Shown: positions 9,826-29,209 of the stretch, one piece after another | Position numbering within the stretch: position 1 is the stretch's first letter | Layout of the letters: every line of letters begins with the position of its first letter | The notes under the pieces: model-generated | The model's input: only the letters and a program-made list of their open reading frames with translations | Told to the model about the DNA's origin: nothing | Databases searched by the model: none | Made by a program: the position numbers and the translations under genes | Origin: Oscillospiraceae bacterium | GTDB taxonomy: Bacteria > Bacillota > Clostridia > Oscillospirales > CAG-272 | Reading direction: 5' to 3' | Length of the DNA stretch: 64,000 bases | NCBI GenBank assembly: GCA_015065105.1 | Contig: SVQZ01000002.1 | Location: 78,811-142,810 of the forward strand

Positions 9826-9840
9826 GTTAAATTCCTCCGT

Positions 9841-11232: not shown

Positions 11233-11233
11233 A

Positions 11234-12211: not shown

Positions 12212-12722
12212 GGTTAAATACCCTAAGCTTTGAAAGGGGAGTTATAATAGCTCCCGTGATAAGTCCGAATATGAGGGCAAATATAAGAAGTAACGGAAGA
12301 TATGAAAAAATTCCGGGGTTTTCCAATATTACTGCTGCCGCAACGCATTGCCCGAGGTTATGTAAGGATGCCGACAGCACAGAAATACCGTAAAAGCTGA
12401 AATGCTTTTTCAATATCATGGAAATAACCATACCGAAATATGCAAGAACGGCTCCCGAAAGAGAAAAGAAAAAGGAGTTTAGGTTACCGAAAAGCAGGGC
12501 GGTAAGACATATACGTGTAAAGCTGACTATTGCCGCGTCAAAAGGTGAAATTGCAAAGAAGCAGAGAGTTACCGCAACGTTTGCCAGCCCTAATTTCGCG
12601 CCGGGAAGCGTAACGATAAGAGAAAGGGGCAATATCGCCTCTATATAAGAGAGCATCATTGCAACACATAGAAGCATTGCATCAAGGGTGAGACGCTTAA
12701 CCCGCGACGAAATCATAGCCAT
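12204..12722 (-). CDS. Gx-transporter / heptaprenyl-diphosphate-synthase-component-I-like membrane protein
   Basis: 172-aa polytopic protein in the usual NusG-II / Gx transporter / ApbE gene order. Confidence 0.6.
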   Translation of the reverse strand: MAMISSRVKRLTLDAMLLCVAMMLSYIEAILPLSLIVTLPGAKLGLANVAVTLCFFAISPFDAAIVSFTRICLTALLFGNLNSFFFSLSGAVLAYFGMVISMILKKHFSFYGISVLSASLHNLGQCVAAAVILENPGIFSYLPLLLIFALIFGLITGAIITPLSKLRVFNHA

Positions 12723-13068
12723 CCTCCTTCCCCTCTATTTCAAGGATGACCCTTGCGGGAACACAGGCGATAAGCTGACCCTTTTTCGATATCCTGCCGC
12801 TGTGGACGCAGGTCTTATCGGGGCAATCGGAGCTTTTTACTCTGACAGAACCGTTTTTTACCTCAATCTTAAGAGTGTATGAGCCTGATTCTATTTCAAA
12901 TTCGTCGTCCTTATCCAAAGGATATTGAGTTTTTTGCGTTCCTACGCTTACCGAAAGTGTTCCGGCATCCTCTTTTTTAGGTGCCGAAAAGCAGAAAAAC
13001 AGGGTAAGCGCGGCAATAAAAACCAATGATATTACCACAATATCCCCGAGTTTTATTTTCTCCTTCAT
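12697..13068 (-). CDS. NusG domain II-containing membrane-anchored protein
   Basis: An N-terminal TM helix, then the beta-rich 'KTCVHSGRISKKGQLIACVPARV' motif. Confidence 0.65.
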   Translation of the reverse strand: MKEKIKLGDIVVISLVFIAALTLFFCFSAPKKEDAGTLSVSVGTQKTQYPLDKDDEFEIESGSYTLKIEVKNGSVRVKSSDCPDKTCVHSGRISKKGQLIACVPARVILEIEGKEDGYDFVAG

Positions 13069-13237
13069 AAGCGTTTCCTTTACATAAGTATAATTATATA
13101 TATTATATCAAAAAATTAAGAAAATTACAAGAGGGCAGAGGGAATAATTGTGTTGTAATTGTAAATACTCTGACAAAAAGCTGCTTGTTGAAAGAGTGTT
13201 TCTCGCTTGCGCCTGTTTGTGTTTTTTACCGTATAAA

Positions 13238-13268
13238 ACAAAAACAGCCTATCCTTTGGATAGACTGT
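13238..13268 (-). terminator. Terminator downstream of tRNA-Leu
   Basis: Hairpin CAGCCTATCC / GGATAGACTG with one mismatch. An A-run on the + strand gives a T-run on the - strand. Confidence 0.6.
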
Positions 13269-13271
13269 TTG

Positions 13272-13356
13272 TGGTGCGAGAAACGGGACTTGAACCCGTA
13301 CGGTGTGAACCACACGCCCCTCAAACGTGCGCGTCTGCCAGTTCCGCCACTCTCGC
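13272..13356 (-). tRNA. tRNA-Leu (anticodon GAG), class II with long variable arm, encoded CCA
   Basis: Reverse complement reads GCGAGAG...CACGT-TTGAGGG-GCGTG...GGTTCAAGTCCCGTTTCTCGCACCA (85 nt). Anticodon loop is TT-GAG-GG and the T-loop is GGTTCAAGTCC. Confidence 0.9.
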
Positions 13357-13388
13357 ATATCAAACACCGCTCTTGCAGTGCGGATATG

Positions 13389-13417
13389 AGTATATCACAC
13401 ATTAAAGTAAATGTCAA
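13389..13417 (-). promoter_or_regulatory. Sigma-70-type promoter for tRNA-Leu
   Basis: On the - strand: TTGACA, 17 nt, TATACT, about 30 nt upstream of the tRNA 5' end. Confidence 0.55.
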
Positions 13418-13457
13418 CCCCTTTTTTGAATTTTTTTCGATTTTTTTTGAAGAACAA

Positions 13458-13496
13458 TAAAAAGTCCGCGATATTAGCAAAATCACGGACTTTTTG
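13458..13496 (-). terminator. Bidirectional-looking terminator ending the cmr operon
   Basis: GTCCGCGAT / ATCACGGAC stem (one mismatch) flanked by an A-run and a T-run, 14 nt after the DEDDh gene stop. Confidence 0.6.
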
Positions 13497-13509
13497 TATT
13501 ATTAAAGAA

Positions 13510-14037
13510 TTAAGCACCTGAGTACTTTTTATCTTTAATTATCTTGAAAATAGCGGCAACATCATTCATTGCATCATGTGAAACAAGCTCATAGCCGGCC
13601 AACTTCATTCTGTTTGAGTTTTTTTCATGATTTTGTGCTACCAGCATACTTTCAAGGTCATAGACGGGAAAAGGAGAATAAGGTATTCTTTGATCCCGAT
13701 CAAGCATTATACACTTATAAAATATACCGCTTTCAACCGGGTATGGAACATCGGTTAAAACAGAATAATCCTTATAATATTTTAGATAAAACTCCCAAAA
13801 TGCACTAAGCAGTTCTTCTGACGAGTCAAAAAACATTTCTGCATTTTTTAAAGTGTCAAAAACATTTTCTTTTGTCCATGGATCACTTATTTCATCAATT
13901 TTGATGTTTCTTGCGCCGTAAAAAGAATCTATTTCCCTTGTTTTATAACATACCTTTACGGCAATGCTCAGTACATCACCGTAAAGACCGTCGGTTTCCG
14001 CATCGATTATAAACAATTTGTCGTTTAAATACTTCAT
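13510..14037 (-). CDS. DEDDh-type 3'-5' exonuclease (DnaQ/oligoribonuclease-like), last gene of the cmr operon
   Basis: ExoI 'FIIDAETDG' and ExoIII 'SHDAMNDV' (H-x4-D). I place the start at the ATG at 14037 (MKYLNDK...), 7 nt after the cmr6 stop. The track's GTG at 14103 would overlap cmr6 by 59 nt. Confidence 0.7.
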   Translation of the reverse strand: MKYLNDKLFIIDAETDGLYGDVLSIAVKVCYKTREIDSFYGARNIKIDEISDPWTKENVFDTLKNAEMFFDSSEELLSAFWEFYLKYYKDYSVLTDVPYPVESGIFYKCIMLDRDQRIPYSPFPVYDLESMLVAQNHEKNSNRMKLAGYELVSHDAMNDVAAIFKIIKDKKYSGA

Positions 14038-14044
14038 TTGTTTC

Positions 14045-14899
14045 TTAGTCAGCTTTTTTAGTTTCGTCTGAAAGTACCCCGAAACCAACGTTGGTTTTGG
14101 CACCTATACCGAAATCCTTCAGGATGATTTTGAAAAGCTCTTTCTTATTTTCAGCACTTATAATACCGTCATGTAAAGAAAAAGAAAACTCAAATTCTAC
14201 GTTTGGTTTAACCTTAACAAGAGTTAACGGAACGGGATTTTTCGTTTCATCCGCTCCATGAGGAGTTATTGCTTCAAGAGCTATTATTGAATTATTATCG
14301 GTAACGACAGGATAAGAATCATAAAACGTATCTCTTTGACACATCGGCAGATTCTTTTTTTGCAGTTTATTATTAACGGTTTCCTCAACGACACCTTCGA
14401 ATATTTCTTCTTCAAGCTTTTCTATATCGACATCACCGGTAAGCTTCAAATTTTCTCTTAAGACTAATGAAACATAGTCTTTGTGGGAAAATGCGCTTCT
14501 TAAAGTTCCCTTGATCGAAGATCCGGGTATATAGGGCAAACCGGTTACGTAATCAAAACTGAATCCGAGCCCGATCTCTCCCTTTCCTCCGTAACCGTGA
14601 GCATATCCTAAACCGATCAATAAACCGGGATATGCGGTTTTTAATGAGAAACGGTAGTCATCGTTTTTATAAACCGATAATTTCGGAGGCGAGATTTTTA
14701 AAAATGCCCTGTTTCTTGAAGCAAAGAAATCCGATCTCTTTTCTTCATATTTGTTGAATACTATAATTGACTTATTTGCTCTATAGTCCCAAAACGGTTT
14801 TGTAAAAGAAACGTTATCATAGTATTCAACGTTGAATGCGTAATGCAGATTTTTTGTTTCAAATCTGAATTCACTTTCTTGTGAATTATTATTTTCCAT
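14045..14899 (-). CDS. cmr6: Type III-B RAMP protein Cmr6
   Basis: 'GLPYIPGSSIKGTLRSAF' and a C-terminal G-rich loop 'GAKTNVGFGVL'. The ATG at 14899 is preceded by AAGGGAG; the track start at 14920 is a TTG. Confidence 0.8.
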   Translation of the reverse strand: MENNNSQESEFRFETKNLHYAFNVEYYDNVSFTKPFWDYRANKSIIVFNKYEEKRSDFFASRNRAFLKISPPKLSVYKNDDYRFSLKTAYPGLLIGLGYAHGYGGKGEIGLGFSFDYVTGLPYIPGSSIKGTLRSAFSHKDYVSLVLRENLKLTGDVDIEKLEEEIFEGVVEETVNNKLQKKNLPMCQRDTFYDSYPVVTDNNSIIALEAITPHGADETKNPVPLTLVKVKPNVEFEFSFSLHDGIISAENKKELFKIILKDFGIGAKTNVGFGVLSDETKKAD

Positions 14900-14912
14900 A
14901 AAATTCACTCCC

Positions 14913-15314
14913 TTAAACAATTTTATACAGATTCATAGCAAGCTTTAAAGCTATAGCCGCGTTATATATTTCTTCTTTAACTTCGGATTCATTGGGTGCT
15001 TTGTCAACATAATCGTATAATGCAGTTTGGGGGATATTGTTGAAATCGGTACCGTTCAAATTATCGTTTATAAGAACGTAGATGATCTTGATCAACGTAT
15101 CTCTGCTTTTTAAAGCGCCCTCCTGCTTAGAGTAAAAAGCAACGGCTGCCTTAAGACTGCCCATTGCTATAGCTGCACCGAAGGAGGAAATATATCCGCG
15201 AAATGTTTTACTGATCTCGGTGAGCTTGGTGTCTTCATTTAGCTTGGCGATTCCGGCATTCTTTAAAGCTTCGTATGCCTTTGGGATAAGCTCCTCTATA
15301 CGTTTTTTGTTCAC
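14913..15314 (-). CDS. cmr5: Type III-B small subunit Cmr5 (Cas11 family)
   Basis: 133-aa helical protein between cmr4 and cmr6, with 'FRGYISSFGAAIAMGSL'. The GTG start overlaps the cmr4 stop (GTGA). Confidence 0.7.
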   Translation of the reverse strand: MNKKRIEELIPKAYEALKNAGIAKLNEDTKLTEISKTFRGYISSFGAAIAMGSLKAAVAFYSKQEGALKSRDTLIKIIYVLINDNLNGTDFNNIPQTALYDYVDKAPNESEVKEEIYNAAIALKLAMNLYKIV

Positions 15315-16075
15315 TTTGTTTTCTCCTCCAATACACTAACTTCGCAAAGTCCGTAGCCTATACTTGCATTACCGCCGAATTGAATTACGTTTAACTTTTT
15401 TAAATGTTTGATAAACTTGTTAAGAAGCTTCTTGTTACTGTATGAGGTGGTTACCGTAACGTAAAAAACGCTCTGATGAGGAACGATCTCTTCATACCAA
15501 AGGTTATCGCTTTTACCGTTTTCAAGTTTGTTTCTTGCTATTACGGGAAGTGATATAGATCTATAATCGCTGTCATTCATAACAAGGAGATGGTTGATTC
15601 CGAAAACATCTTTCAGACCGTTTGTGACAGGGCAGGTAATGCCTTCAACACAGTTGTTGCCGGGGATGTTCGTTACAAGATCAGCTTTAAGACTGATGCC
15701 CGCGTTCAAGGACAACGACAGATCGTTGAATATATCAATGGCACGTTGTGTGGTTACGAGTTCGTAAGGGTTGGTACCCTTTGACGAACGCATGGGACGT
15801 GCAATGATATTTGCACTTAAAAATTTAAGCTTACCGGGAGCACCGTCTCCCTCTGCACCGAAAACGTTGTTCAAATCATCGAAGCCTGTATTTCTGAATG
15901 CTTCTCTGAATGCGCCCTTAACTCCGCTTGAATTGATGGTAGGATAACCGGTAACGGGATCTTTTTCCACACTGTTGTCAATAATATCAAAGTTTTCATC
16001 ACCGTTTCCAACGTAAAGATTTGTTAAACATCTTAATTTTAATATTTTTGTGTACATACGTGCTTTTGTGTACAT
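15311..16075 (-). CDS. cmr4: Type III-B backbone RAMP Cmr4 (Cas7 family)
   Basis: 'NLYVGNGDENFDIIDNSVEKDPVTGYPTINSSGVKGAFREAF' (acidic residue in the catalytic loop is present) and a C-terminal 'GGNASIGYG' loop. GGAGG RBS upstream. Confidence 0.85.
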   Translation of the reverse strand: MYTKARMYTKILKLRCLTNLYVGNGDENFDIIDNSVEKDPVTGYPTINSSGVKGAFREAFRNTGFDDLNNVFGAEGDGAPGKLKFLSANIIARPMRSSKGTNPYELVTTQRAIDIFNDLSLSLNAGISLKADLVTNIPGNNCVEGITCPVTNGLKDVFGINHLLVMNDSDYRSISLPVIARNKLENGKSDNLWYEEIVPHQSVFYVTVTTSYSNKKLLNKFIKHLKKLNVIQFGGNASIGYGLCEVSVLEEKTK

Positions 16076-16078
16076 ATC

Positions 16079-17089
16079 TTAGCCTCCTAATTTAACCAAT
16101 TTATTCAGTCCGTACGTATCGTTATAAAAATAATCTTCGCTTGCAACGTCAAAATAGAATACGCTGCCTGCTTTAATAACGTTATAAAGCTTCTCGCTCG
16201 GTCTTATTTTTAATTTGTTGTTTGAATCGTAGCTTGAAGAAAGGGTTCTTAAAGTACCTGTTTTAACTATCGAGTAATCGGTATATTTTATATGCTTTTT
16301 CAATAAGAGATCGGAAAAAGCATACCAGACTCCGTCACCACAGACCTCTTCAATCTCTTTTGTTATATCATAAGAATCGCAAAGGGGCTCTGCGTTTAGT
16401 TTAAAACAGGATTTTTCACGTCCCATATAACAAACGGTATCGGAGATTTTCGTATCAAGCTCGGCTGCCACAGCAAAGCAATATTCTTTTTTAAGATACA
16501 TATACAGCTTTTTGAAGTATGCCTCGTCCTTTTTATTCTTATCTATTCCCACTCTTTCGCAAGATTCGAATATATCCGAAACAATAGCTTTATCAGATAT
16601 ACGCATATAGCTTGTTTCTCCCAAGAATCTTCCGTGGCTCTTGATGTCGTAATCTTTGGGGACATGTATGCTTCCGTGAGAGGTGGATATCACGGTATCT
16701 GACATTTCAAGAGGGGAATAAAAAGAGTGTACGGCATCGTGGTTTAAAGGGGCAGGGATGTATTTTTCCCCTTTATTATCCATAATAAACAAGGGTGAAA
16801 CCGAACGTATCTTTCCTAAGCGGTTATCGGCATCAACCATATATGCCTTTTCTCCGATCAGCTCGTTTTGTTTGCTTCTGTCCTCATAAACTCTATCGGT
16901 ATTCAAGAGGTAATTTTGCTCAAGAAGAACGTATCTCAGCATACCGAGAATAGTTGTCTGCGAGGGCAGAGGAAGAGAGGATATATAATAGCTTTCACTG
17001 ATAAGGCTTGAAGCTCCCGCTATACGGAAGGTGTTTTCGCCTCCGAAAAAGTACGGCTCCAAAGGAGTAAGCTTAATGAGATATTTCAT
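16079..17089 (-). CDS. cmr3: Type III-B Cmr3 (Cas5 family)
   Basis: N-terminus 'LTPLEPYFFGGENTF', and its position between cas10 and cmr4. Confidence 0.75.
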   Translation of the reverse strand: MKYLIKLTPLEPYFFGGENTFRIAGASSLISESYYISSLPLPSQTTILGMLRYVLLEQNYLLNTDRVYEDRSKQNELIGEKAYMVDADNRLGKIRSVSPLFIMDNKGEKYIPAPLNHDAVHSFYSPLEMSDTVISTSHGSIHVPKDYDIKSHGRFLGETSYMRISDKAIVSDIFESCERVGIDKNKKDEAYFKKLYMYLKKEYCFAVAAELDTKISDTVCYMGREKSCFKLNAEPLCDSYDITKEIEEVCGDGVWYAFSDLLLKKHIKYTDYSIVKTGTLRTLSSSYDSNNKLKIRPSEKLYNVIKAGSVFYFDVASEDYFYNDTYGLNKLVKLGG

Positions 17090-17091
17090 TC

Positions 17092-18801
17092 TTATTTACC
17101 TGCCTTTTCTATGAAGAATTTCGAGAGCCTTAAGATAGATTCAAAAGCCTTTACGTAATCGCCCTTATGCTCTGTGTCTGTCAGCATTATACGTCTTCGG
17201 CAGAGGATATTTTCAAAGAAACGGGAGGATATTTCTTTAATATCTTCATCCGTTAAACTGTTTATATCCGTTGCGGCATATACCGCTTTATCAATACGCT
17301 CTTTTACGACGGTTGTACTGCTCAGGCAAATTTCATCATTGTATTTTCCGATCTCTGTTATGATGGAATCGAACACGTCATCCGCGGCTCCGAGACCTTT
17401 AATAAACGATTTGATCGAATCGGCTTTTGATAAAGCCGAAGAAAGATCGCAGAGCTGAGAATTTTTAAAATCAATGATGTTTTTCTTTATTCCGGATAAA
17501 AAGTTTTCAAACTTCTTATGGGCGGTATTATCAAATATGTTGTCCATAAGGCAGGAAAGCGTTTCATCTCCGATGACGTTGTTAAATAAGGTTTTATTCT
17601 TTTCCAGCGCGTAAATTACAGAGTGAATGCCTTTGTTTTTGTCATCAGTATTGAGTGCCGGAGCGTAATAAGAGGAAAGAATACTTTTGAAGGATCCGAA
17701 TTCATCATTGGGTATAAGAAGCTTTATACCCTGTCCGCTTCCCTTCATAAAATCTATCATCATTGCATCTTTTCCGGGTACCGATTCTTTAACTTCATAA
17801 AGTGCGTTGATACTGCTGTTAAGAGTTTCGTAAAGAGGGAATTTTTCGTATCTTATCGCAATACCAAAGGAAACGGAGGGAGAATCATTATTGTTTGCCA
17901 CGGTATTTTTAAAGATTTCGCGTATATCATGACAAAGATCGAATACGGTTTTTTCATTTCTATATACAGGGGCAATGAAAAGCAGATCGTCTCCGCCCGC
18001 ATATACCGTCATTGCGCCGAATTCTGTTATCAGATCGTGCGCCTTTTGTGCGTAATCAAAGCAATTTTTCGAAAAATCGCTGACATTTTCATCTCCGATA
18101 CTGTTTATGTAGTTACCGATTCCGTCGCCGTCCGCTTCAACTACCGCAAAGTACTCACTTCTTTTTAAGCCGTCCTTTGTACCGGCAATGCTTACGATAT
18201 CACGGAATTTTTCTTGCTCTTTATCTAACAGCCAAAGATGGGGATAGGCATTAGCAACGTAGTTCTTGACAGAATCATTTCTGAACTTCCTGCCCTTGAA
18301 TATCAGCTTGAAGGGATTGTCGTTGGTTTCGCTGATGTTAGGAGAGGGCATTTGTTCAAGAGAATCGAGGATCTTTGAGATATTTAAAAATGCAGAGCCG
18401 TTTATTTTATCTTCCGGAAGGGTCGTCCAATGAATCTGGAGATACTGCTTGAGAAATTCCACCGTATGCTTATACTCTTCGGAATCCTTTATAAGCCCGA
18501 GAGCTGTTGTAACGGTCTCTGCCATTTCATTTTCCGATTTAAGAATAATATTTTCGATATCTATAGCTGAATCGATCTTAATGATGATTCTGTCGTGATA
18601 TCTTCCGATGCCGTCTTTGTAAACGGTATTATTGAAATGGGGCGATAATATCGTTACCTCTGGATTTGAAGGGAGGTTACGGCATATTGTCTCGGTCAGT
18701 CCCGAGAACATCTTGCTGGCAAACCACATCGCCGCAGGGGAATGAGCAAGCAATAACGTGTCAAAGATAGGACCTATGGTTATACCGATATATTCAGCCA
18801 T
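17092..18801 (-). CDS. cas10: Cas10/Cmr2, short form (~569 aa) with intact GGDD palm and no evident HD domain
   Basis: 'VVEADGDGIGNYI' and 'VYAGGDDLLFIAP'. The probable start MAEYIGITIGPIF at 18801 follows the cmr1 stop closely, whereas the track start at 18921 overlaps cmr1. Only ~300 aa precede GGDD. Confidence 0.85.
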   Translation of the reverse strand: MAEYIGITIGPIFDTLLLAHSPAAMWFASKMFSGLTETICRNLPSNPEVTILSPHFNNTVYKDGIGRYHDRIIIKIDSAIDIENIILKSENEMAETVTTALGLIKDSEEYKHTVEFLKQYLQIHWTTLPEDKINGSAFLNISKILDSLEQMPSPNISETNDNPFKLIFKGRKFRNDSVKNYVANAYPHLWLLDKEQEKFRDIVSIAGTKDGLKRSEYFAVVEADGDGIGNYINSIGDENVSDFSKNCFDYAQKAHDLITEFGAMTVYAGGDDLLFIAPVYRNEKTVFDLCHDIREIFKNTVANNNDSPSVSFGIAIRYEKFPLYETLNSSINALYEVKESVPGKDAMMIDFMKGSGQGIKLLIPNDEFGSFKSILSSYYAPALNTDDKNKGIHSVIYALEKNKTLFNNVIGDETLSCLMDNIFDNTAHKKFENFLSGIKKNIIDFKNSQLCDLSSALSKADSIKSFIKGLGAADDVFDSIITEIGKYNDEICLSSTTVVKERIDKAVYAATDINSLTDEDIKEISSRFFENILCRRRIMLTDTEHKGDYVKAFESILRLSKFFIEKAGK

Positions 18802-19945
18802 CGTTACGTTCCTCCGCGAAAAAATTATTATATCCGTGAAATACGCGAGAATACCTCTCATTATTTTTCGAAACAGGGAAATAATTATTAAAGAATGCTT
18901 CCAAAAAATTGTCTGTGTCAAAATTATCCGGGGTCTTCATGGAAACAAATTCATTTGTTTTTTTATTGAAAAATTTAAAGGTCTGTATTTCTTCGTTGCT
19001 TAAAATACGTTGATTTATATTTTTGCCGATAATATAAACATTATTTTCTATTATTTTGAAAAAGACAGGAGAGGGAAGCCTTTCTATTCTCAGATTATCC
19101 TTATTAGATCTTGTGTTGCTTATCTGAACGGTGAAGCCTTCCTTTTTGAATCTGATAATTTCTCCCATGCCGAGCAGGCATCTGACGTACCTATGATCAT
19201 TTGCCGTTTTTTGGTTTATTCTTCTGGAATATTTCCAAGGTCTTATACAGGTTGATTCGTTATTTATATTTTCTAAATATTTGAAAAGAAAGGACCCTTC
19301 AAAATCATCATTTATTCGGCATCCCGATTTCATAACAGAATACAGGATTTTGATCTTATCAAAAGTGGTTCTTTTGAAATGATCATTATCATTAACAGAA
19401 AATCCGTAACATGCTCTTGAATTATATTTACGGCAAAGAATCTGCGGTATATTATCCGGTTTTGCAGAAGGGTAATCATTTATCTTTTGAACGGTAAAGC
19501 TTCCGAAGCCCTTGTTTTGCATTCTTCCGAAGTTTGTAACAATGAAAAAGTCGCAGATATTGTGGAGAATGACTTCGGTTAGTTCGGAATTAAAGCAGAT
19601 GAGAGTCATTGTACAGGTATTACAGAAAACGAATCTTGCTTTTATAGAATCCTTACCCATGTTTCCGTAATAAATTCCGCGTTCCGGAGGATCGATATCT
19701 TCAACTTTTTCGGAGTATTCAAATCTGAGCTTATAATTAAGGGCTTTGGGCAGCTTGGAGTTGTCTGCCTTTACTCCGAAACCGACGAGCCAGTTCTCGG
19801 GAACCTTGCCGTTTAAACGTTCAATTATGAATTTGTCCAATTTTGGCTTGACTTCGCTTGCTCTGAGGGTAGCTCCCGATTCATTCGCCTGAAAATGAAT
19901 GAGGGGGGTATGCTGCTTTAACTCAATAACGGTTTTGAAATTCAT
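18794..19945 (-). CDS. cmr1: Cmr1-like RAMP protein (first gene of the type III-B operon)
   Basis: The position, the size (383 aa), the N-terminal 'TPLIHFQ...ATLRASEVKPKL' and the G-rich loop 'NFGRMQNKGFGSF' all fit. Assignment is by context plus RAMP motifs. Confidence 0.6.
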   Translation of the reverse strand: MNFKTVIELKQHTPLIHFQANESGATLRASEVKPKLDKFIIERLNGKVPENWLVGFGVKADNSKLPKALNYKLRFEYSEKVEDIDPPERGIYYGNMGKDSIKARFVFCNTCTMTLICFNSELTEVILHNICDFFIVTNFGRMQNKGFGSFTVQKINDYPSAKPDNIPQILCRKYNSRACYGFSVNDNDHFKRTTFDKIKILYSVMKSGCRINDDFEGSFLFKYLENINNESTCIRPWKYSRRINQKTANDHRYVRCLLGMGEIIRFKKEGFTVQISNTRSNKDNLRIERLPSPVFFKIIENNVYIIGKNINQRILSNEEIQTFKFFNKKTNEFVSMKTPDNFDTDNFLEAFFNNYFPVSKNNERYSRVFHGYNNFFAEERNDG

Positions 19946-20016
19946 TTTACATCCTTTCTTAACGTTAGATTTTTTCTTGTATATTTTAGCTAATTTTTTC
20001 GACCTCGTTTTTATTT

Positions 20017-20045
20017 AGTGTACTACATTATACATAAAATGTCAA
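20017..20045 (-). promoter_or_regulatory. Candidate promoter of the cmr operon
   Basis: On the - strand: TTGACA, 17 nt, TACACT, about 70 nt upstream of the cmr1 ATG. Confidence 0.35.
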
Positions 20046-20123
20046 TATTGTTACGAAAATTTGTATTGCAGATTAATAAATCCGATATAAGTCGAAATTT
20101 AAATTTTCTGTATATATAAAACA

Positions 20124-20152
20124 ACCCGTCTGCTGTTTTTTCGCAGACGGGT
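20124..20152. terminator. Hairpin terminator between array 1 and the cmr operon
   Basis: Perfect 10-bp stem ACCCGTCTGC / GCAGACGGGT with T-rich flanks on both strands. Confidence 0.65.
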
Positions 20153-20183
20153 AATTTTGTTTTTATTATTTTGATGAATATAA

Positions 20184-20762
20184 AAATTAAAGTATTAAAG
20201 ACAAAGTGCGACAGGAGTTTTAAATGATGGTGAAACCGAAGATGCAGCGGCCATGTATCAATTCCTATAAGGTAATGTGCGACGTAACACAAATAGTGAA
20301 ACAAAAAGTAAAGCTCCAAAGCGTTCCGTATCAATTCCTATAAGGTAATGTGCGACATAATTCTCCTATTTGGAATAGGATTAGCTATTTACAAACTAAT
20401 AAGGTTCTTTATAAACCTTGTTAGAAAAACTCGGGATGATCTTGTATCAATTCCTATAAGGTAATGTGCGACATACTTGTGCAATATGTGGTAAGAAATT
20501 TAATATACGTATCAATTCCTATAAGGTAAGGTGCGACGAATATTGTGTATATAATGTTCGGTGTATCTATATGCATGATAGTATCAATTCCTATAAGGTA
20601 ATGTGCGACGCTGATGAAGTCAGAACCTATAATCCGTACCAGAAAAGCTTTGATAAGCTTAAGTATAAATTCCTATAAGGTAATGTGCGACAGGACACAC
20701 TCACATGGCAAAGGCAAACAAAGAACTCTCTACGTATAAATTCCTATAAGGTAATGTGCGAC
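20184..20762 (-). CRISPR. CRISPR array 1 (8 repeats, the distal one degenerate), transcribed leftward from the leader at 20763-20854
   Basis: 29-nt repeats (+ strand GTATCAATTCCTATAAGGTAATGTGCGAC) at 20255, 20328, 20444, 20509, 20581, 20663 and 20734, plus a degenerate remnant ending ...AAAGTGCGAC at 20212. Spacers are 42, 44, 87, 36, 43, 53 and 42 nt. In crRNA sense the repeat is GTCGCACATTACCTTATAGGAATTGATAC, which ends like the ATTGAAAC-type 8-nt tag. Confidence 0.95.
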
Positions 20763-20854
20763 AACTGTAAAATCAAGGGTTGTCAATAGTATTATACAAT
20801 AAACACTGTAAAAAGTCAAGGAAAAGTCGGTCGGTCAAATTTAGAATATTCAAT
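20763..20854 (-). promoter_or_regulatory. CRISPR leader 1 with promoter (TTGACT-17-TATAAT on the - strand; + strand coordinates 20814-20819 and 20791-20796)
   Basis: 92 nt, reverse-complement identical to 21572-21663 except for 2 mismatches. It abuts the first repeat. Confidence 0.8.
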
Positions 20855-20867
20855 TGGTAAATAAAAA

Positions 20868-21092
20868 ATGTTAAATGAAATTCTTGATTTCACGTATTCG
20901 GATGACAAAGGGGTGTATTTGAACTATAACGGAAAAAGGATGTTTGTATCGGCATTTTATAAAAAACTTTATGAAAAAATAACCGTATCAGACAAAACGC
21001 TCAGTTATATGGAGCTTATACGTATAGAAATACAGAAGCTTATCGAATATATAAATAACGGTACGGCATATATACCATATAAGTACTATTGA
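20868..21092 (+). pseudogene. cas1: cas1 remnant (C-terminal ~74 codons only)
   Basis: 'GKRMFVSAFYKKLYEKI...SYMELIRIEIQKLIEYINNGTAYIPYKYY' resembles the Cas1 C-terminal helices. The frame is closed by a stop 2 codons upstream, and leader 1 occupies the place of the missing ~250 codons. cas2 follows 15 nt downstream. Confidence 0.65.
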
Positions 21093-21107
21093 ACGGGAGG
21101 CAAAAGA

Positions 21108-21368
21108 ATGTATATTATTTTAACGTATGATATAGCCACCGTTAAAATATCCAAGGTAAGAAAGGTTTGTAAAAAATATCTTCGTCATATTCAAAAGTCT
21201 GTTTTTGAAGGGAGCTTAACCTGCTCTCAACTGAAGCTGTTGAAAAAGGAGCTTAAGCCTTTAATTTCTCCGCAAACGGACAGCATAATAATATATGAAT
21301 TTGAAAATTTAAAATTCACTTCTAAAGAACAGCTGGGAGTATCCAACGAATACACGAATGTTATCTGA
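21108..21368 (+). CDS. cas2: CRISPR-associated endoribonuclease Cas2
   Basis: 86 aa, 'MYIILTYDI...KVRKVCKKYLRHIQKSVFEG' ferredoxin-fold pattern. Confidence 0.85.
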   Translation: MYIILTYDIATVKISKVRKVCKKYLRHIQKSVFEGSLTCSQLKLLKKELKPLISPQTDSIIIYEFENLKFTSKEQLGVSNEYTNVI

Positions 21369-21571
21369 GTGGGGTAAAGCCTTATCTCTGTTTGAATATT
21401 CAGACTCTTCTATGCTTAACAATCTGTAAATCCGGAAAAAGTCGGTCGATCGGTTTGCCGAGTATTTATAAGGGTAAGTTAGCTCCCAAAGGGTGATATT
21501 TCTGCTAAAAAACGGTTTTTACACAGAAAAAGTCGGTCGGTCATAAAGCCTTTTTTTATATCGGCTTAAAT

Positions 21572-21663
21572 ATTGAATATTCTAAATTTGACTGACCGAC
21601 TTTTCCTTGACTTTTTACAGTGTTTATTGTATAATACTATCGACAACCCTTGATTTTACAGTT
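21572..21663 (+). promoter_or_regulatory. CRISPR leader 2 with promoter (TTGACT 21607-21612, 17 nt, TATAAT 21630-21635)
   Basis: Inverted copy of leader 1, ending directly at the first repeat of array 2. Confidence 0.8.
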
Positions 21664-22242
21664 GTCTCACCTTACCTTATAGGAATTGATACTTTTTACA
21701 ATGTGCGGCTTAGTGTGCTATATTTTTTATTATTGTCTCACCTTACCTTATAGGAATTGATACTTGTCCAATCTTTCATCTTGCATGCCTCCAAAATAAT
21801 TTATTCGTCGCACATTACCTTATAGGAATTGATACCCTTTCGCTTTGCAGCTTCAAGGATAGAATCTTCATCAAGTCGCACCTTACCTTATAGGAATTGA
21901 TACGCGATCCTTATTTTCTTTATCTTCATGATGTATTTACCTCCTCTTAAAAGATACGTCGCACATTACCTTATAGGAATTGATACAAAAGAAATCCAGG
22001 TTTTCTACTCTCACGAAGTGAACGGATTTCAGAAATAGTTACTTCGTGCGTTGCACCTTACCTTATAGGAATTGATACAACATTGGCCATACAATAGATC
22101 TAGAAGCATTTGACGGTGCATAGTATGCAATGTCGCACATTACCTTATAGGAATTGATACTTTATAGAGGAAAAATGGAAAACTGGCAAGGAAAAAACCT
22201 ATTAGATATAGCGTCGCACATTACCTTATAGGAATTGATTAC
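21664..22242 (+). CRISPR. CRISPR array 2 (8 repeats), transcribed rightward
   Basis: Repeats at 21664, 21735, 21807, 21875, 21958, 22050, 22132 and 22213; the last carries a 1-nt insertion (GATTAC). Consensus is GTCGCACATTACCTTATAGGAATTGATAC, with GTCTCACC / GTCGCACC / GTTGCACC variants. Spacers are 42, 43, 39, 54, 63, 53 and 52 nt. Confidence 0.95.
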
Positions 22243-22321
22243 GGTGACGGGCATTGTAAGAGCAGCGCATTGATCTATAACTTAATTTCACGTTATTCTA
22301 TATATTTAAAGCAGGTTTGAG

Positions 22322-23032
22322 ATGCAGATAAAGCTATTTTTTAAAACCGAGCCGGGCTTTTCTCTGCCCTTTAATTACAATCATCAGCTTCAAAGCGGTA
22401 TATACAGAAAGCTCGGTGAGATAGGGAGATCGGATTTTATTCATGACGTCGGATATACAAGCAAGCACTTCAAGGGCTTTGTTTTCGGCTCGGTCAACGG
22501 CGATCTTTCGGTGAAAGAAAAAAAGCTGGTGTTTGGAAAATCCTTATTCTTTGAGCTCAGATCCTTTTCCTATGAATTTTGCGATGATATTCAGAGAAGC
22601 TTTGAGAGGTTTCCGTATATGAAGCTTTTTGATACCGAGCTCGGTTTATCGGATATGAAGCTCGGCAATGTTCATATCAACAGCGAAAGGGCGGAATTTT
22701 GCGCGCAGACTCCGGTGATAGTGCATAAAAGAACACAGGACGGTAAGACTGTATATTATTCGCCGGATGATGAAGAGTTTCTGCCCGGTTTAAAGGAGAA
22801 TTTTATAAAGAAGTATTCTGCTCTTACAGGTAAAGAGGCTTCCGGAATATCTATCGATACCTTCGGTAATTACAAGAAAACGGTAACGAATTATAAGGGA
22901 ACCTGGATAAATGCCTACAAAACGAATTTTATTATATCGGGGGATAGCGAGAGCCTTGAATTTATTTATAATACGGGGCTCGGTGCAAAAAACTCCCAGG
23001 GCTTCGGAATGCTTGATCTCTTGCAGTCTTAA
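22322..23032 (+). CDS. cas6: CRISPR repeat endoribonuclease Cas6
   Basis: 236 aa, 'PFNYNHQLQSGIYRKL' and a C-terminal G-rich loop 'GLGAKNSQGFGML'. Confidence 0.85.
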   Translation: MQIKLFFKTEPGFSLPFNYNHQLQSGIYRKLGEIGRSDFIHDVGYTSKHFKGFVFGSVNGDLSVKEKKLVFGKSLFFELRSFSYEFCDDIQRSFERFPYMKLFDTELGLSDMKLGNVHINSERAEFCAQTPVIVHKRTQDGKTVYYSPDDEEFLPGLKENFIKKYSALTGKEASGISIDTFGNYKKTVTNYKGTWINAYKTNFIISGDSESLEFIYNTGLGAKNSQGFGMLDLLQS

Positions 23033-23137
23033 ATAAACCGAATATATGGAAACGGCAGTATGCCTGACAGCAATAGCAGTATTATCCGTACTAATACAAA
23101 GACCTGTACAAAGACGTACCTTCCCATGAGGTGATCT

Positions 23138-24364
23138 ATGAGATTTGCAATTATCGGAGACCTCCAGTATTGGAAAGCGGAGGTTGAAGAGCTTTCTTTC
23201 AAGATGGAGCAGATAAGGAAATATAAGCCGGATTTTTCCTTTGTAATGGGTGATGTCGGCGGTTCGCAGATGAGAAGCGAGGCGGGATTGCTCGAAACAA
23301 AGGAATACGTTTCAATGGCGGGGTGTCCCTTTCATCTTATCTACGGCAACCATGACGTTGAATACTGGCCTGACAACAGATTTGAATATGACCCCGAGAG
23401 TACCTACCGAAGGGTCTTTGAAGAGTCACCTTATATCTCCTATATTTTTGACGGTGTGCTCTTCGTCTGTCTTTCGATAGAGCGTCAGCCGTATGAGAGC
23501 TTTATTACACCCTATACCGTTTATATTTCGGACGCTCAGTATGAGTGGGCGAAAGATGTCATAGAAAAGAACAGAGATATCCCCTGTGTTATGATCGCCC
23601 ATGCTCCCGTTGCGGGCTCGGGTCTTCGCTGTGAGAGACCGATGCATAATGCGGCTCTTGACACGTATCTCGACCAGACCTTTAAAGCGGAGCGTTGGGT
23701 GAAGCTTTTGAGAGATAATCCTCAGATCAGAGTCTGGGTAAGCGCTCATTTTCATATGGGCCACGATTATGAAAGCGCCATTACCGAAAGGGAGGGTGTT
23801 GTACATATCTCTTCGGGAGTTATGACCTGCTGTACCCGTGACGAAAGGGCTCATACGAGAATTATCGATATAACCGAAGATAAAAGGCTTTTGGTTTATA
23901 CCCTTGATCATAATAATGACGGTGAGCTTATTCTTGATGCTGAAATAGATCTTTACGGTAAGGAAAAAAGCAAGGGCAGGATAAAGCGTCCGCAAAGGCA
24001 TGAGATACTTATCGGTGACGGCGATATGCCGGAATCATTGTGGTATGATGAAAGGCATAAGAGCTATTATGTTTCAACAGAAAAGGGAATGCTTTGGGAA
24101 TTTTCGGAGGAGCTTTGTGATTTCTGCGGCGCTCTTTCCTACGAGAAAAAGGTTTCCGGGCTTTTTCTGGAGAATGATATGCTTGTGCTGGAATATGCGG
24201 ACAAAACTGCCGTATCTCTTGACCTTACCTCACGAAAAAGATGGCAATATAAGGATTCTCTGCCCCGGGAGCTTAATATTTGTTCCTCTGTTTTCGGCAA
24301 AAAGCTTCCTTATGTGAGCTATGATACCTACCCTTCAAAAGAAGGGATATATATTAAATTTTAG
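23138..24364 (+). CDS. Calcineurin-like metallophosphoesterase with a ~120-aa uncharacterised C-terminal domain
   Basis: Motifs 'IIGDLQY', 'VMGDVGG', 'YGNHDVEY', 'IAHAPV', 'SAHFHMGHD'. There is no terminator between cas6 and this gene, and a GAGGTGA RBS precedes it. Confidence 0.75.
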   Translation: MRFAIIGDLQYWKAEVEELSFKMEQIRKYKPDFSFVMGDVGGSQMRSEAGLLETKEYVSMAGCPFHLIYGNHDVEYWPDNRFEYDPESTYRRVFEESPYISYIFDGVLFVCLSIERQPYESFITPYTVYISDAQYEWAKDVIEKNRDIPCVMIAHAPVAGSGLRCERPMHNAALDTYLDQTFKAERWVKLLRDNPQIRVWVSAHFHMGHDYESAITEREGVVHISSGVMTCCTRDERAHTRIIDITEDKRLLVYTLDHNNDGELILDAEIDLYGKEKSKGRIKRPQRHEILIGDGDMPESLWYDERHKSYYVSTEKGMLWEFSEELCDFCGALSYEKKVSGLFLENDMLVLEYADKTAVSLDLTSRKRWQYKDSLPRELNICSSVFGKKLPYVSYDTYPSKEGIYIKF

Positions 24365-24412: not shown

Positions 24413-24496
24413 CTGTCGATTTATGGGGAACGATTTTCAGGGGGGTACCCTACCGAAACGCAAAATCGTATGTTATGATAGATGCGAGGTGGTGAG

Positions 24497-24976
24497 ATGC
24501 ATCTGTTTGCAGAGATAAAAAACGATTACGTAACGGGCAGTGAAAGCTACAAGGCTCTTGCAAAAAAATATTCGGCGGATTATTCCGAGATCCTTTTGAC
24601 TGCAAGGGAAGAGGGTTGGGCGGAACAGAGAAGGGAATTCAGAAATTCTGCACAGTATTGTGAAAAAAGGCTTGAGGAGGTAACGCTTAAGCTTATCCGA
24701 AAGCTTGAAAGGGCAATTGACGAGCTTGACAGCTACGTTACAACGGTGCATATCAAGGAAAAGAATACCGAATATGACGAGGAAGGCAAAAAGGCTGTTT
24801 TTGAGAGGGTAGTGGAGAGTGAAGAGATATGCATCAAGAAGGGTCTTATAGACAGAACTGCCATAAAGCAGCTGGCGGCAACGATCAAGGAGCTCAAAGG
24901 CAGGGATATGCAGGAGGAGGAAGCCGAGGGAGTTGAGGTGATACTCAGCGATGAGGCGAGGGAGCTTGCAAAATGA
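24497..24976 (+). CDS. Phage terminase small subunit
   Basis: 'MHLFAEIKNDYVTGSESYKALAKKYS...' HTH-like N-terminus and an acidic C-terminus. Stop overlaps the terL start. The ATG at 24497 is preceded by GAGGTGG. Confidence 0.6.
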   Translation: MHLFAEIKNDYVTGSESYKALAKKYSADYSEILLTAREEGWAEQRREFRNSAQYCEKRLEEVTLKLIRKLERAIDELDSYVTTVHIKEKNTEYDEEGKKAVFERVVESEEICIKKGLIDRTAIKQLAATIKELKGRDMQEEEAEGVEVILSDEARELAK

Positions 24977-29183: not shown

Positions 29184-29209
29184 CTCTGCGAAAAAGAAAG
29201 GAAAAAGAT

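What the first reader, a model, noticed from the sequence alone, without database searches (positions are those of the whole stretch)
17092..18801. Compact, apparently HD-less Cas10 with intact GGDD, in a locus with no recognisable signal-sensing effector
The Cas10 starts (MAEYIGITIGPIF...) directly in palm-like sequence. Only ~300 aa precede 'YAGGDDLLF', and the total is ~569 aa. That seems too short to hold a ~200-aa HD domain plus Palm1. One 'YHDR' dipeptide exists at about residue 67, so HD loss needs structural confirmation. The 'EADGDGIG' and 'GGDD' motifs predict nucleotide-signal synthesis.

Between 13.4 and 24.4 kb there is no Csx1/Csm6/Can/SAVED/CARF, NucC or CorA-like ORF. The only non-core genes are a DEDDh exonuclease and a metallophosphoesterase.

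Established background, from memory: HD-less type III-B systems depend on second-messenger effectors. The Bacteroides fragilis CorA-type III-B makes SAM-AMP, which is removed by a dedicated phosphodiesterase or lyase.

Inference: either the effector is encoded elsewhere, or the locus is decaying (cas1 is already lost), or one of the two linked hydrolases is an unrecognised effector or signal-turnover enzyme.
Basis: partly seen in the sequence, partly recalled or inferred. Interest (0 to 1): 0.65.

Follow-up and report, generated by a model that had tools for sequence, protein, structure and literature searches.

The report
SAM-AMP-type Cmr locus lacking its CorA effector
This is an intact type III-B CRISPR system of the already characterised kind that signals with SAM-AMP; it keeps the signal-degrading DEDD nuclease but, unlike almost all its relatives, has no CorA membrane effector nearby, which is a modest curiosity rather than a new kind of system.

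Summary
The Cas10 (17092-18801, minus strand, 569 aa) has no HD domain and an intact GGDD motif. No effector gene lies in the locus or anywhere in the 64 kb window.

The compact form is not peculiar to this gene. It is the normal architecture of a large, known clade: Bacteroides fragilis-type Cmr2, with 359 relatives in species-representative genomes. The 'YHDR' peptide is not an HD motif. Its Asp (D70), together with E149, matches B. fragilis Cas10 D70/E151, the residues beside the amino-acid part of SAM. SAM-AMP synthesis is therefore predicted.

The 175-aa DEDDh gene after cmr6 belongs to the CRISPR-associated DEDD family. In relatives this gene sits beside, or is fused to, CorA. CorA is present in 68 of 80 related genome loci, and most of the other 12 are truncated contigs. 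It is absent here, even as a fragment.

The metallophosphoesterase is a conserved chromosomal neighbour, not a CRISPR gene.

A second strain has the same operon end: DEDD, terminator, then tRNA-Leu, with no CorA. Between the two strains the cmr and DEDD genes show purifying selection (pN/pS 0.35). The system is therefore maintained rather than plainly decaying. It probably uses a receptor encoded elsewhere, or RNA cleavage alone.

The parts
13272..13356 (-). tRNA-Leu(GAG). It marks the boundary of the locus, directly after the operon terminator.
   Evidence: ARAGORN. The same junction is present in strain L004.
13460..13496 (-). Hairpin plus T-run that ends the cmr-DEDD operon. No room or remnant for corA follows it.
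   Evidence: Read directly from the sequence. It is identical in L004.
13510..14037 (-). CRISPR-associated DEDDh exonuclease (175 aa from the ATG at 14037). It is the predicted SAM-AMP phosphodiesterase.
   Evidence: It is 53% identical to the DEDD that precedes CorA in L002 and 38% identical to the N-terminal part of the DEDD::CorA fusion in L001. Catalytic residues D12, E14, D96, H154 and D159 are conserved. The AlphaFold2 model (pLDDT 93.8) matches oligoribonuclease, REXO2 and RNase T.
14045..14899 (-). cmr6
   Evidence: TIGR01898 E=1.7e-30; PADLOC Cmr6.
14913..15314 (-). cmr5
   Evidence: PADLOC Cmr5 E=1.6e-39.
15311..16075 (-). cmr4, the backbone RNase subunit, with its catalytic Asp retained.
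   Evidence: TIGR02580 E=1e-34. The Asp in 'IID' aligns with the B. fragilis Cmr4 Asp that is replaced by Ala in the target-bound structures 9lq6-8.
16079..17089 (-). cmr3
   Evidence: Pfam Cas_Cmr3 E=4.8e-16; PADLOC Cmr3 E=5e-35.
17092..18801 (-). cas10/cmr2: 569 aa, HD-less, with GGDD at 269-272 and the SAM-site residues D70 and E149.
18794..19945 (-). cmr1
   Evidence: PADLOC Cmr1 E=4.9e-75.
20017..20151 (-). Hairpin terminator after array A (about 20125-20151), followed by promoter-like sites for the cmr operon.
   Evidence: Sequence. Promoter-like sites on the minus strand at 20054-20027 and 20045-20017. Conserved in L004.
20255..20762 (-). CRISPR array A: 7 repeats of GTCGCACATTACCTTATAGGAATTGATAC, transcribed towards cmr1.
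20763..20854 (-). Leader A, with a TTGACT-17-TATAAT promoter. It is an inverted copy of leader B.
   Evidence: Inverted repeat with arms 20734-20854 and 21572-21692, 121 nt, 96% complementary. Promoter match 11 of 12.
20868..21092 (+). cas1 remnant (74 aa). Only the C-terminal ~64 residues of Cas1 survive.
   Evidence: PADLOC Cas1 model positions 252-315 of 315, E=3e-10. Relatives carry a ~640-aa RT-Cas1 fusion.
21108..21368 (+). cas2, intact (86 aa).
   Evidence: PADLOC Cas2b E=7.9e-30.
21572..21663 (+). Leader B with promoter.
21664..22241 (+). CRISPR array B: 8 repeats, transcribed towards cas6.
22322..23032 (+). cas6
   Evidence: TIGR01877 E=1.4e-26; PADLOC Cas6b E=1.4e-51.

Best explanation
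**What it is**
The locus is a complete type III-B (Cmr) CRISPR system of the clade that signals with SAM-AMP, not with cyclic oligoadenylates. Its Cas10 has the clade's normal HD-less, ~480-600 aa architecture.

**How it most likely works**
1. Cas6 cuts crRNAs from two outward-facing arrays.
2. The Cmr1-6 complex binds a complementary foreign RNA, and Cmr4 cleaves it.
3. The activated Cas10 joins ATP to SAM to make SAM-AMP.
4. The DEDDh enzyme encoded after cmr6 hydrolyses SAM-AMP and resets the signal.

**What is unusual**
The receptor that relatives encode beside DEDD, the CorA-type membrane effector, is missing here. The operon ends with a terminator followed directly by tRNA-Leu. The metallophosphoesterase beyond cas6 is an unrelated chromosomal neighbour.

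**Shown versus inferred**
- Shown: the gene identities, the absence of an HD domain, the conserved catalytic and SAM-site residues, the absence of CorA from 64 kb, and purifying selection on the cmr and DEDD genes.
- Inferred: the SAM-AMP chemistry, the DEDD substrate, and what reads the signal.

**My commitment on the receptor**
- About 45%: a receptor encoded elsewhere in the genome.
- About 30%: no receptor, with immunity from RNA cleavage alone.
- The remainder: recent loss heading towards decay, or an unknown receptor.
For: **Cmr gene set.**

**HD-less Cas10.** Sequence alignment to B. fragilis Cmr2 runs from residue 2/3. The AlphaFold2 model and Foldseek search agree.

**SAM-site residues.**
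- D70 and E149 are invariant in 44 homologues and in all 86 family members retrieved.
- They align with B. fragilis D70/E151.

**Family link to CorA.**
- A CorA-like gene is present in 68 of 80 genome loci, plus L001, L002, L005 and L091.
- PADLOC CorA models confirm its identity, E=1e-52 to 1e-71.
- Streptococcus oralis loci, cited by Chi et al. as DEDD+CorA systems, fall in this family.

**DEDD.**
- It lies next to CorA in most loci and is fused to it in L001 and L046.
- Its catalytic residues and fold are intact.

**CorA absent here.** tblastn and a sensitive HMM search over the whole window found nothing.

**Metallophosphoesterase unrelated.**

**Maintained rather than decaying.**
- Strain L004 has the same DEDD-terminator-tRNA-Leu end and the same array-to-cmr1 upstream region.
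- L089 is 99.99% identical over cas6 to the head genes, so it is effectively the same strain.
- Pooled pN/pS against L004 is 0.35, P=1.5e-7.
- The Cmr4 catalytic Asp is intact.
- Promoters and terminators are well formed.
Against: - No biochemistry exists for this system. SAM-AMP synthesis is inferred from two conserved residues and clade membership.
- In the literature I could search, DEDD activity on SAM-AMP has not been shown for any member; only NrN and the lyase have been tested.
- In B. fragilis both CorA and the degrading enzyme are needed for immunity (PMC10600005). A CorA-less locus may therefore give little protection.
- The strain divergence used for pN/pS is small (dS 0.01-0.07). 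DEDD alone carries too few changes to test, and the cyclase site cannot be tested for constraint on this timescale.
- One retrieval pattern for related loci contained the HDR motif, so the invariance of D70 is partly by construction. E149 is not affected by this.
- The rest of the genome was not available, so an effector acting in trans is untested.
Confidence: 0.7

Rival explanations
1. The locus is decaying. CorA and RT-Cas1 have been lost, signalling now leads nowhere, and the remaining genes are intact only because the loss is recent.
For: - cas1 is reduced to a 74-aa remnant.
- CorA is absent although nearly all relatives have it.
- The layout is rearranged compared with the collinear cmr-DEDD-CorA-cas6 order of L001 and L002.
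- No spacer matches a known phage.
Against: - All seven cmr and DEDD genes, plus cas6 and cas2, are intact here and in strain L004.
- L004 shares the same DEDD-terminator-tRNA end.
- Pooled pN/pS is 0.35 (P=1.5e-7), or 0.23 outside two mosaic patches in cas10.
- Promoters, leaders and terminators are intact.
- The two strains carry different spacers in array A, so the array has turned over.
Confidence: 0.2
2. The system works without any signal receptor. Immunity comes from Cmr4 cleavage of target RNA alone. SAM-AMP synthesis is vestigial, and DEDD is kept either to remove a useless or harmful by-product or for another task such as trimming crRNA 3' ends.
For: - The Cmr4 catalytic Asp is retained.
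- There is no effector within 64 kb.
- DEDD has the fold of 3'-5' exoribonucleases that trim short RNAs.
- crRNA trimming by an accessory nuclease (NYN) is documented in the B. fragilis system (PMC11346440).
Against: - In B. fragilis, plasmid immunity required the cyclase, CorA and NrN (PMC10600005), so RNA cleavage alone was not enough there.
- GGDD, D224/D226, D70 and E149 are all retained, although the time since CorA loss is unknown.
Confidence: 0.3
3. One of the two linked hydrolases is itself the effector. The 408-aa metallophosphoesterase would be a new signal-activated effector, or DEDD a signal-activated nuclease.
For: - The metallophosphoesterase lies 105 nt downstream of cas6 on the same strand.
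- It has an uncharacterised ~200-aa C-terminal half.
Against: - No homologue of the metallophosphoesterase occurs in any of the 85 related CRISPR loci retrieved.
- Its orthologues (54-75% identical) sit in genomes without cas genes. L088 has the same mutS-miaB-ApbE-NusG_II neighbourhood, and L090 has the same head-gene cluster.
- It has no PADLOC hit.
- DEDD is a small single-domain enzyme with no sensor domain.
- In relatives DEDD accompanies an effector rather than replacing it: CorA in most loci, a CARF-PD-DExK protein in L095, and a 4TM protein in L102.
Confidence: 0.05
4. This Cas10 makes cyclic oligoadenylates rather than SAM-AMP, and its effector is an unlinked CARF or SAVED protein.
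For: - Some family members are linked to CARF-PD-DExK nucleases: L002 upstream, L063 and L095.
- Hoikkala et al. 2024 raise the possibility that some CorA proteins respond to other signals (PMC11229360).
Against: - D70 and E149 are conserved as in the enzyme shown experimentally to make SAM-AMP, and the nearest relatives (L005, L001, L002) all encode CorA.
- The linked turnover enzyme is of the CorA-associated DEDD family, not a ring nuclease.
Confidence: 0.1

Closest known systems
Bacteroides fragilis type III-B Cmr/CorA/NrN SAM-AMP system (Chi et al. 2023, PMC10600005; structures 9LQ5-9LQ8)
   Same: - The Cas10 is HD-less and starts directly in Palm1.
- It has GGDD and the D70/E151-equivalent acidic residues.
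- B. fragilis Cmr2 is the best sequence and structure match.
- The Cmr1-6 set is complete, Cas6 is present, and a dedicated small-molecule phosphodiesterase is encoded in the operon.
   Different: - There is no CorA gene in cis.
- The degrading enzyme is a DEDDh-fold protein, not the DHH-family NrN.
- Cas10 sequence identity is only about 17-18% over the structural alignment.
- No NYN gene is present.
- cas1 is truncated.
Streptococcus oralis / Syntrophothermus-type III-B loci with DEDD + CorA (named in Chi et al. 2023), and the gut and rumen Firmicutes loci L001, L002, L005 and L091
   Same: - Same Cas10 family.
- Same DEDD family: 38-54% identical in L001, L002 and L091.
- DEDD sits directly after cmr6 in L001, L002 and L091.
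- Same Cas6 family.
   Different: - Those loci have CorA immediately beside DEDD or fused to it. Here the operon terminates after DEDD.
- Their adaptation module is an intact RT-Cas1 plus Cas2.
- This Cas10, like L004 and L005, has a longer and divergent C-terminal helical domain of about 125 aa.
Effector-less, HD-less, cyclase-positive type III loci (133 loci in Hoikkala et al. 2024, PMC11229360)
   Same: The Cas10 is nuclease-deficient with an intact cyclase, and no known effector lies in the locus. Those authors proposed signalling in trans to another locus.
   Different: Here the signal type can be predicted as SAM-AMP, and the signal-degrading enzyme is retained although the receptor is gone. 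I did not find that combination described.
Vibrio metoecus type III-B with NucC (also an HD-less Cmr2)
   Same: An HD-less Cas10 that relies on signalling.
   Different: Per Chi et al. 2023, V. metoecus Cmr readily makes an ATP-derived product. That it makes cA3 for NucC is from my memory, not from a tool result. The window Cas10 instead carries the acidic SAM-site residues, and a second HD-less Cmr2 structure (9arw) matches far more weakly than B. fragilis Cmr2.

Membership tests
Type III-B (Cmr) CRISPR-Cas | Cas10/Cmr2 together with Cmr1, Cmr3, Cmr4, Cmr5 and Cmr6 in one operon. | tested here: met
   Pfam, NCBIfam and PADLOC hits for all six genes.
Type III-B (Cmr) CRISPR-Cas | A CRISPR array and Cas6 for crRNA production. 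| tested here: met
   Two arrays (7 and 8 repeats) with promoter-bearing leaders, plus cas6.
HD-nuclease Cas10 | An N-terminal HD phosphohydrolase domain of about 200 aa. | tested here: not met
   - The protein starts in Palm1.
- It aligns from residue 3 to residue 2 of the HD-less B. fragilis Cmr2.
- The structure matches HD-deleted P. furiosus Cmr2 and leaves the HD domain of the full-length protein uncovered.
- The His of 'YHDR' is variable in the family.
SAM-AMP-synthesising Cas10 (CorA-1 cluster, Chi et al. 2023) | An intact GGDD cyclase motif and the Palm2 metal-binding Asp residues. | tested here: met
   GGDD at 269-272, with D224 and D226 invariant.
SAM-AMP-synthesising Cas10 (CorA-1 cluster, Chi et al. 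2023) | Two conserved acidic residues in the acceptor site, equivalent to B. fragilis D70 and E151. | tested here: met
   Window D70 and E149 align with them (positions counted by hand) and are invariant in the family.
SAM-AMP-synthesising Cas10 (CorA-1 cluster, Chi et al. 2023) | Production of SAM-AMP from ATP and SAM on target RNA binding. | not testable with these tools
   Needs reconstitution and LC-MS.
CorA-type SAM-AMP signalling system (Cmr + CorA + degrading enzyme) | A CorA-family membrane effector encoded in the locus. | tested here: not met
   There is no CorA in any frame of the 64 kb window. The operon ends at a terminator and tRNA-Leu.
CorA-type SAM-AMP signalling system (Cmr + CorA + degrading enzyme) | A linked SAM-AMP-degrading enzyme (NrN, DEDD or SAM-AMP lyase). 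| tested here: met
   A DEDD-family gene follows cmr6. It is homologous to the DEDDs beside or fused to CorA, including those in S. oralis loci.
DEDDh 3'-5' exonuclease superfamily (RNase T / oligoribonuclease / REXO2-like) | The catalytic residues D, E, D, H and D in three Exo motifs. | tested here: met
   D12, E14, D96, H154 and D159 are conserved.
DEDDh 3'-5' exonuclease superfamily (RNase T / oligoribonuclease / REXO2-like) | The RNase H-like exonuclease fold. | tested here: met
   AlphaFold2 model with pLDDT 93.8. Foldseek top hits are oligoribonuclease, REXO2 and RNase T, with TMq 0.53-0.68.
DEDDh 3'-5' exonuclease superfamily (RNase T / oligoribonuclease / REXO2-like) | Hydrolysis of SAM-AMP, the family-specific substrate. 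| not testable with these tools
   Not shown experimentally for any DEDD member in the literature I could search.
CRISPR-associated accessory gene (applied to the metallophosphoesterase at 23138-24364) | Recurrent linkage to cas genes across lineages. | tested here: not met
   It occurs in 0 of 85 related loci. Orthologues in L086, L088 and L090 have no cas neighbours.

The most novel reading that the evidence does not exclude
The CorA-less Cmr + DEDD module is a working system in its own right, maintained by selection. Either SAM-AMP is read by a receptor of a kind not yet recognised and encoded elsewhere in the genome, or the target-activated cycle itself is the output. In that cycle Cas10 makes SAM-AMP and DEDD splits it back to SAM and AMP, which drains ATP or perturbs SAM pools. 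Distant relatives pair DEDD with non-CorA partners: a 4TM membrane protein in L102 and a CARF-PD-DExK nuclease in L095. This hints that the DEDD-linked signal is not tied exclusively to CorA.
Probability: 0.12. Interest if true: 0.7.

Novelty: new variant of a known kind. Interest (0 to 1): 0.3.

Why it matters
The Cas10 adds nothing new. It is one more member of the B. fragilis-type SAM-AMP synthase clade.

The modest value lies in the configuration. The signal maker and the signal remover are kept under purifying selection while the only known receptor is missing. If a complete genome shows CorA elsewhere, this is a clean natural example of the inter-locus signalling proposed for effector-less type III loci. 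If it shows none, the locus is a test case for two questions: whether SAM-AMP has other receptors, and whether a Cmr complex is worth keeping for RNA cleavage alone.

It also flags the DEDD family as a still untested SAM-AMP phosphodiesterase. Here the enzyme can be studied free of its usual partner.

Tried and rejected
**Longer Cas10 start.** The ORF can be extended to a TTG at 18921 (609 aa). I rejected this start. It overlaps cmr1, no homologue has the extension, and 40 extra residues could not hold an HD domain.

**'YHDR' as a degenerate HD motif.** Rejected. The His varies and the Asp is the SAM-site residue.

**Hidden or pseudogenised corA.**
- tblastn with the L001 and L002 CorA proteins found nothing.
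- hmmsearch --max against all six-frame fragments found nothing.
- A search for window proteins with a large soluble N-terminal domain followed by C-terminal TM helices flagged only the partial ORF at 62840-64000. I read it as a PrkC-type kinase from its position after a PP2C-like gene; I did not test this.

**Other effectors in the window.** Pfam and PADLOC scans of the remaining unannotated ORFs gave only housekeeping hits, plus a weak generic patatin match at 58581-59423.

**Metallophosphoesterase as an accessory gene.** Rejected on synteny.

**Phage-borne CRISPR.** Rejected. The locus DNA has no match in the phage database, and the window is chromosomal (mutS, mutL, miaB, groEL, ffh).

**Spacer targets.** No self-match in the window and none in 50,697 phage records.

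**More strains.** An exact-match scan of metagenome contigs for the DEDD-terminator junction found nothing.

**The rest of the genome.** It could not be recovered.

**L005 as a second locus of the same genome.** L005 is CorA-positive with a Cas10 59% identical to this one. It was assembled from a different run (SRR28204465) than L004 (SRR28204466), and neither protein was found in the other run. This is weak evidence against the idea.
Full report
**What is there**

The minus strand between 13.5 and 19.9 kb carries one tight operon:
- cmr1 (18794-19945)
- cas10/cmr2 (17092-18801)
- cmr3 (16079-17089)
- cmr4 (15311-16075)
- cmr5 (14913-15314)
- cmr6 (14045-14899)
- a DEDDh-type gene (13510-14037)

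Pfam, NCBIfam and PADLOC profiles identify every cmr gene. Upstream lie two CRISPR arrays with the repeat GTCGCACATTACCTTATAGGAATTGATAC: 7 repeats at 20255-20762 and 8 repeats at 21664-22241. The arrays face outward from a central segment. That segment is flanked by a 121-nt, 96% complementary inverted copy of the leader, and each leader copy carries a TTGACT-17-TATAAT promoter.

The central segment holds an intact cas2 (21108-21368). It also holds a 74-aa ORF (20868-21092) that matches only the last ~64 positions of Cas1 models. Relatives carry a ~640-aa RT-Cas1 fusion there. cas6 (22322-23032) follows array B.

The window is chromosomal. mutL, mutS, miaB, ApbE and NusG_II lie on one side, and ffh and groEL on the other. 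The locus abuts tRNA-Leu at 13272-13356. Its G+C content is 33-39%, against 43-45% in the flanks.

**The Cas10**

- The protein is 569 aa.
- EADGDGIG is at residues 222-229 and GGDD at 269-272.
- Residue 3 aligns with residue 2 of the 600-aa B. fragilis Cmr2, PDB 9lq5 chain B. I identified that chain by counting its GGDD to D328/D329. PMC13294483 names 9LQ8, which holds the same chain B sequence, as the B. fragilis complex.

An AlphaFold2 model built on 44 homologues is confident, with pLDDT 89.2 and pTM 0.90. Its best PDB matches are the four B. fragilis Cmr2 chains, with query-normalised TM-score 0.64-0.67. Next come the HD-deleted P. furiosus Cmr2 constructs. Full-length P. furiosus Cmr2 is only partly covered, with target-normalised TM-score 0.38-0.39. 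There is therefore no HD domain.

The sequence also shows no cysteine between residues 130 and 216, so a zinc-finger D2 insert is absent too. This contributes to the small size.

None of this is peculiar to this gene.
- A PADLOC Cas10b model of 487 positions covers residues 3-449 at E=7.5e-52.
- The protein database holds hundreds of 480-530-aa relatives from gut and rumen Firmicutes.
- 359 relatives were confirmed in one-genome-per-species contigs, including Streptococcus oralis and S. mitis, Lachnospiraceae and Oscillospiraceae.

**The 'YHDR' peptide**

It is not an HD motif. In the family alignment D70, R71 and E149 are invariant. Across 86 family members the preceding His is H, P, N, A or Y, while the Asp never changes.

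A profile alignment to B. fragilis Cmr2 places window D70 on B. fragilis D70 and window E149 on B. fragilis E151. Chi et al. 2023 showed that the D70N/E151R double mutant abolishes SAM-AMP synthesis and shifts the enzyme towards pppApA. [quoted passage not shown]

One caveat applies. One of the two retrieval patterns contained 'HDR', so D70 invariance is partly by construction. E149 is free of that bias. On this basis the enzyme is predicted to make SAM-AMP. That is an inference, not a demonstration.

**The DEDDh gene**

Its real start is probably the ATG at 14037 (MKYLNDK..., 175 aa).
- It is 53% identical to the 172-aa gene that follows cmr6 in L002.
- It is 38% identical to the N-terminal part of a 729-aa protein in L001.
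- In L002 the next gene is a CorA-like protein. In L001 the rest of the fusion is one. Both have two C-terminal TM helices and match PADLOC CorA models at E=1e-52 to 1e-71.

An HMM built from these DEDD sequences also finds the 170-aa genes in S. oralis loci. Chi et al. name that species as carrying DEDD next to CorA.

The catalytic residues D12, E14, D96, H154 and D159 are conserved. The AlphaFold2 model (pLDDT 93.8) matches oligoribonuclease, REXO2 and RNase T, the same folds Chi et al. report for the CRISPR-associated DEDD. I found no paper that tested this activity for DEDD itself.

**The missing effector**

In 80 related genome loci, an iterated CorA HMM finds a CorA-like gene in 68. Of the 12 without it, 10 are contigs that end too close to the cas genes to be informative. 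The closest relatives all have it:
- L005 (59% identical Cas10): CorA upstream of cmr1.
- L001 (51%): CorA fused to DEDD.
- L002 (42%): CorA after DEDD.
- L091: CorA after DEDD.

In the window, tblastn and a maximally sensitive HMM search of every six-frame fragment find no CorA, whole or partial, in 64 kb. After DEDD come a hairpin with a T-run and then tRNA-Leu. The other ORFs in the window are housekeeping genes or phage head genes.

An independent survey seeded with DEDD in metagenome contigs gave CorA in 15 of 19 loci with enough flanking DNA. Two CRISPR-linked exceptions pair DEDD with something else:
- L095: a CARF-PD-DExK nuclease.
- L102: a PADLOC '4TM effector'.

**The metallophosphoesterase**

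It has no homologue in any of the 85 related CRISPR loci retrieved by then. Its full-length orthologues (33-75% identical) occur in Oscillospiraceae and Clostridia MAGs, in contexts without cas genes.
- L088 has mutL-mutS-miaB-ApbE-Hpre-NusG_II, then a different variable insert that includes a HEPN AbiU2 gene, then the metallophosphoesterase.
- L090 has the metallophosphoesterase followed by the same phage head-gene cluster as the window.
- L086 has yet another context.

It is a conserved chromosomal gene at the edge of a variable insertion spot, not part of the CRISPR system.

**Decay or function**

L004 comes from another sequencing run and is 98% identical over 6.95 kb. It has the same array-terminator-promoter-cmr1...DEDD-terminator-tRNA-Leu order. 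L089, from a JGI metagenome, is 99.99% identical over cas6 to the head genes.

Between the window and L004 every gene is intact. Pooled pN/pS over cmr1-6 and DEDD is 0.35, with binomial P=1.5e-7. Outside two patches of cas10 (residues 76-111 and 166-198) it is 0.23. In those patches both synonymous and non-synonymous changes are concentrated, which suggests a recombined segment.

The Cmr4 catalytic Asp is present. It aligns with the residue mutated to Ala in the target-bound B. fragilis structures. The two strains carry different spacers at the cmr1-proximal end of array A.

These points argue that the CorA-less system is maintained. Divergence is small, however (dS 0.01-0.07), so constraint on the cyclase site itself cannot be judged.

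**Most likely mechanism**

- Shown: the parts list and their intact catalytic residues.
- Inferred from the characterised B. fragilis system: crRNA-guided binding of foreign RNA, Cmr4 cleavage, Cas10-catalysed SAM + ATP to SAM-AMP + PPi, and DEDD hydrolysis of SAM-AMP.
- Unknown: what, if anything, senses SAM-AMP.

Hoikkala et al. 2024 found 133 HD-less, cyclase-positive loci without effectors. Such loci are 2.57-fold more likely to share a genome with another type III locus. I therefore favour a receptor encoded elsewhere (about 45%). RNA cleavage-only function comes next (about 30%), then recent loss on the way to decay (about 20%). The remaining ~5% covers a novel receptor or the futile SAM-AMP cycle as output. 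I put that reading at about 12% when it is scored separately, because an unrecognised receptor encoded elsewhere also falls within the 45%.

**Verdict**

The headline feature, a compact HD-less Cas10, is ordinary for a known, widespread clade. One of the two candidate hydrolases is already a recognised family, and the other is irrelevant. What remains is a rare CorA-less variant of the SAM-AMP type III-B system.

Noticed in passing
window 24482-33804 (+): A ~9.3 kb cluster holds only phage head and packaging genes: small and large terminase, a P22/SU10-type portal, a Prp peptidase, the major head protein and a 642-aa 'internal virion protein'. No integrase, tail, lysis or replication genes are present. 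The same cluster in the same order follows the metallophosphoesterase orthologue (75% identical) in L090, between it and KhpA/rpsP. It looks conserved across species, perhaps a domesticated capsid or GTA-like element, rather than a decaying prophage.
   Followed up: partly
window 17092-18801, Cas10 residues 76-111 and 166-198: Of 34 amino-acid differences between the window and strain L004, 24 fall in these two patches. Synonymous changes are also concentrated there, which suggests a recombined mosaic segment in an otherwise 98-99% identical operon.
   Followed up: partly
L102 7628-8985; L095 6180-8824; L038 7855-10598: DEDD homologues in type III-B loci are sometimes paired with partners other than CorA. 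L102 has a 279-aa PADLOC '4TM effector' directly after DEDD, next to an RT-PrimPol protein and Cas1. L095 has a CARF-PD-DExK nuclease two genes downstream of DEDD. L038, a Dialister MAG, has an unannotated 740-aa protein between cmr6 and DEDD.
   Followed up: partly
window 13069-23137 compared with L088 5917-10000: The interval between NusG_II/tRNA-Leu and the metallophosphoesterase seems to be a variable insertion spot. It holds the CRISPR locus here. In a related genome with the same flanking synteny it holds a SulP transporter, a HEPN AbiU2 gene, DUF6809 and DUF960.
   Followed up: no
window 20255-22241: Spacer lengths are unusually uneven: 36-63 nt, plus one 87-nt interval that may hide a degraded repeat. 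The repeats nearest both leaders are the variant ones (GTCTCACC... in array B...AATTTATAC in array A). Strain L004 carries different spacers in array A even though cas1 is truncated here.
   Followed up: no
L029 (Lachnospiraceae MAG), 7652-14884: This is a second family member with no CorA or DEDD within 10 kb upstream or 7.5 kb downstream of cas10. A 429-aa protein with a hydrophobic, signal-peptide-like N-terminus follows cmr6.
   Followed up: no
window 1339-1537: A tandem repeat of period 93 nt with about 2 copies and 82-91% matches. It is unrelated to the CRISPR locus.
   Followed up: no
L086 6185-9514: In one related genome the metallophosphoesterase orthologue (72% identical) lies next to an 808-aa SLH-metallophosphoesterase protein and a 1109-aa protein with TIR and WD40/beta-propeller domains.
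   Followed up: no
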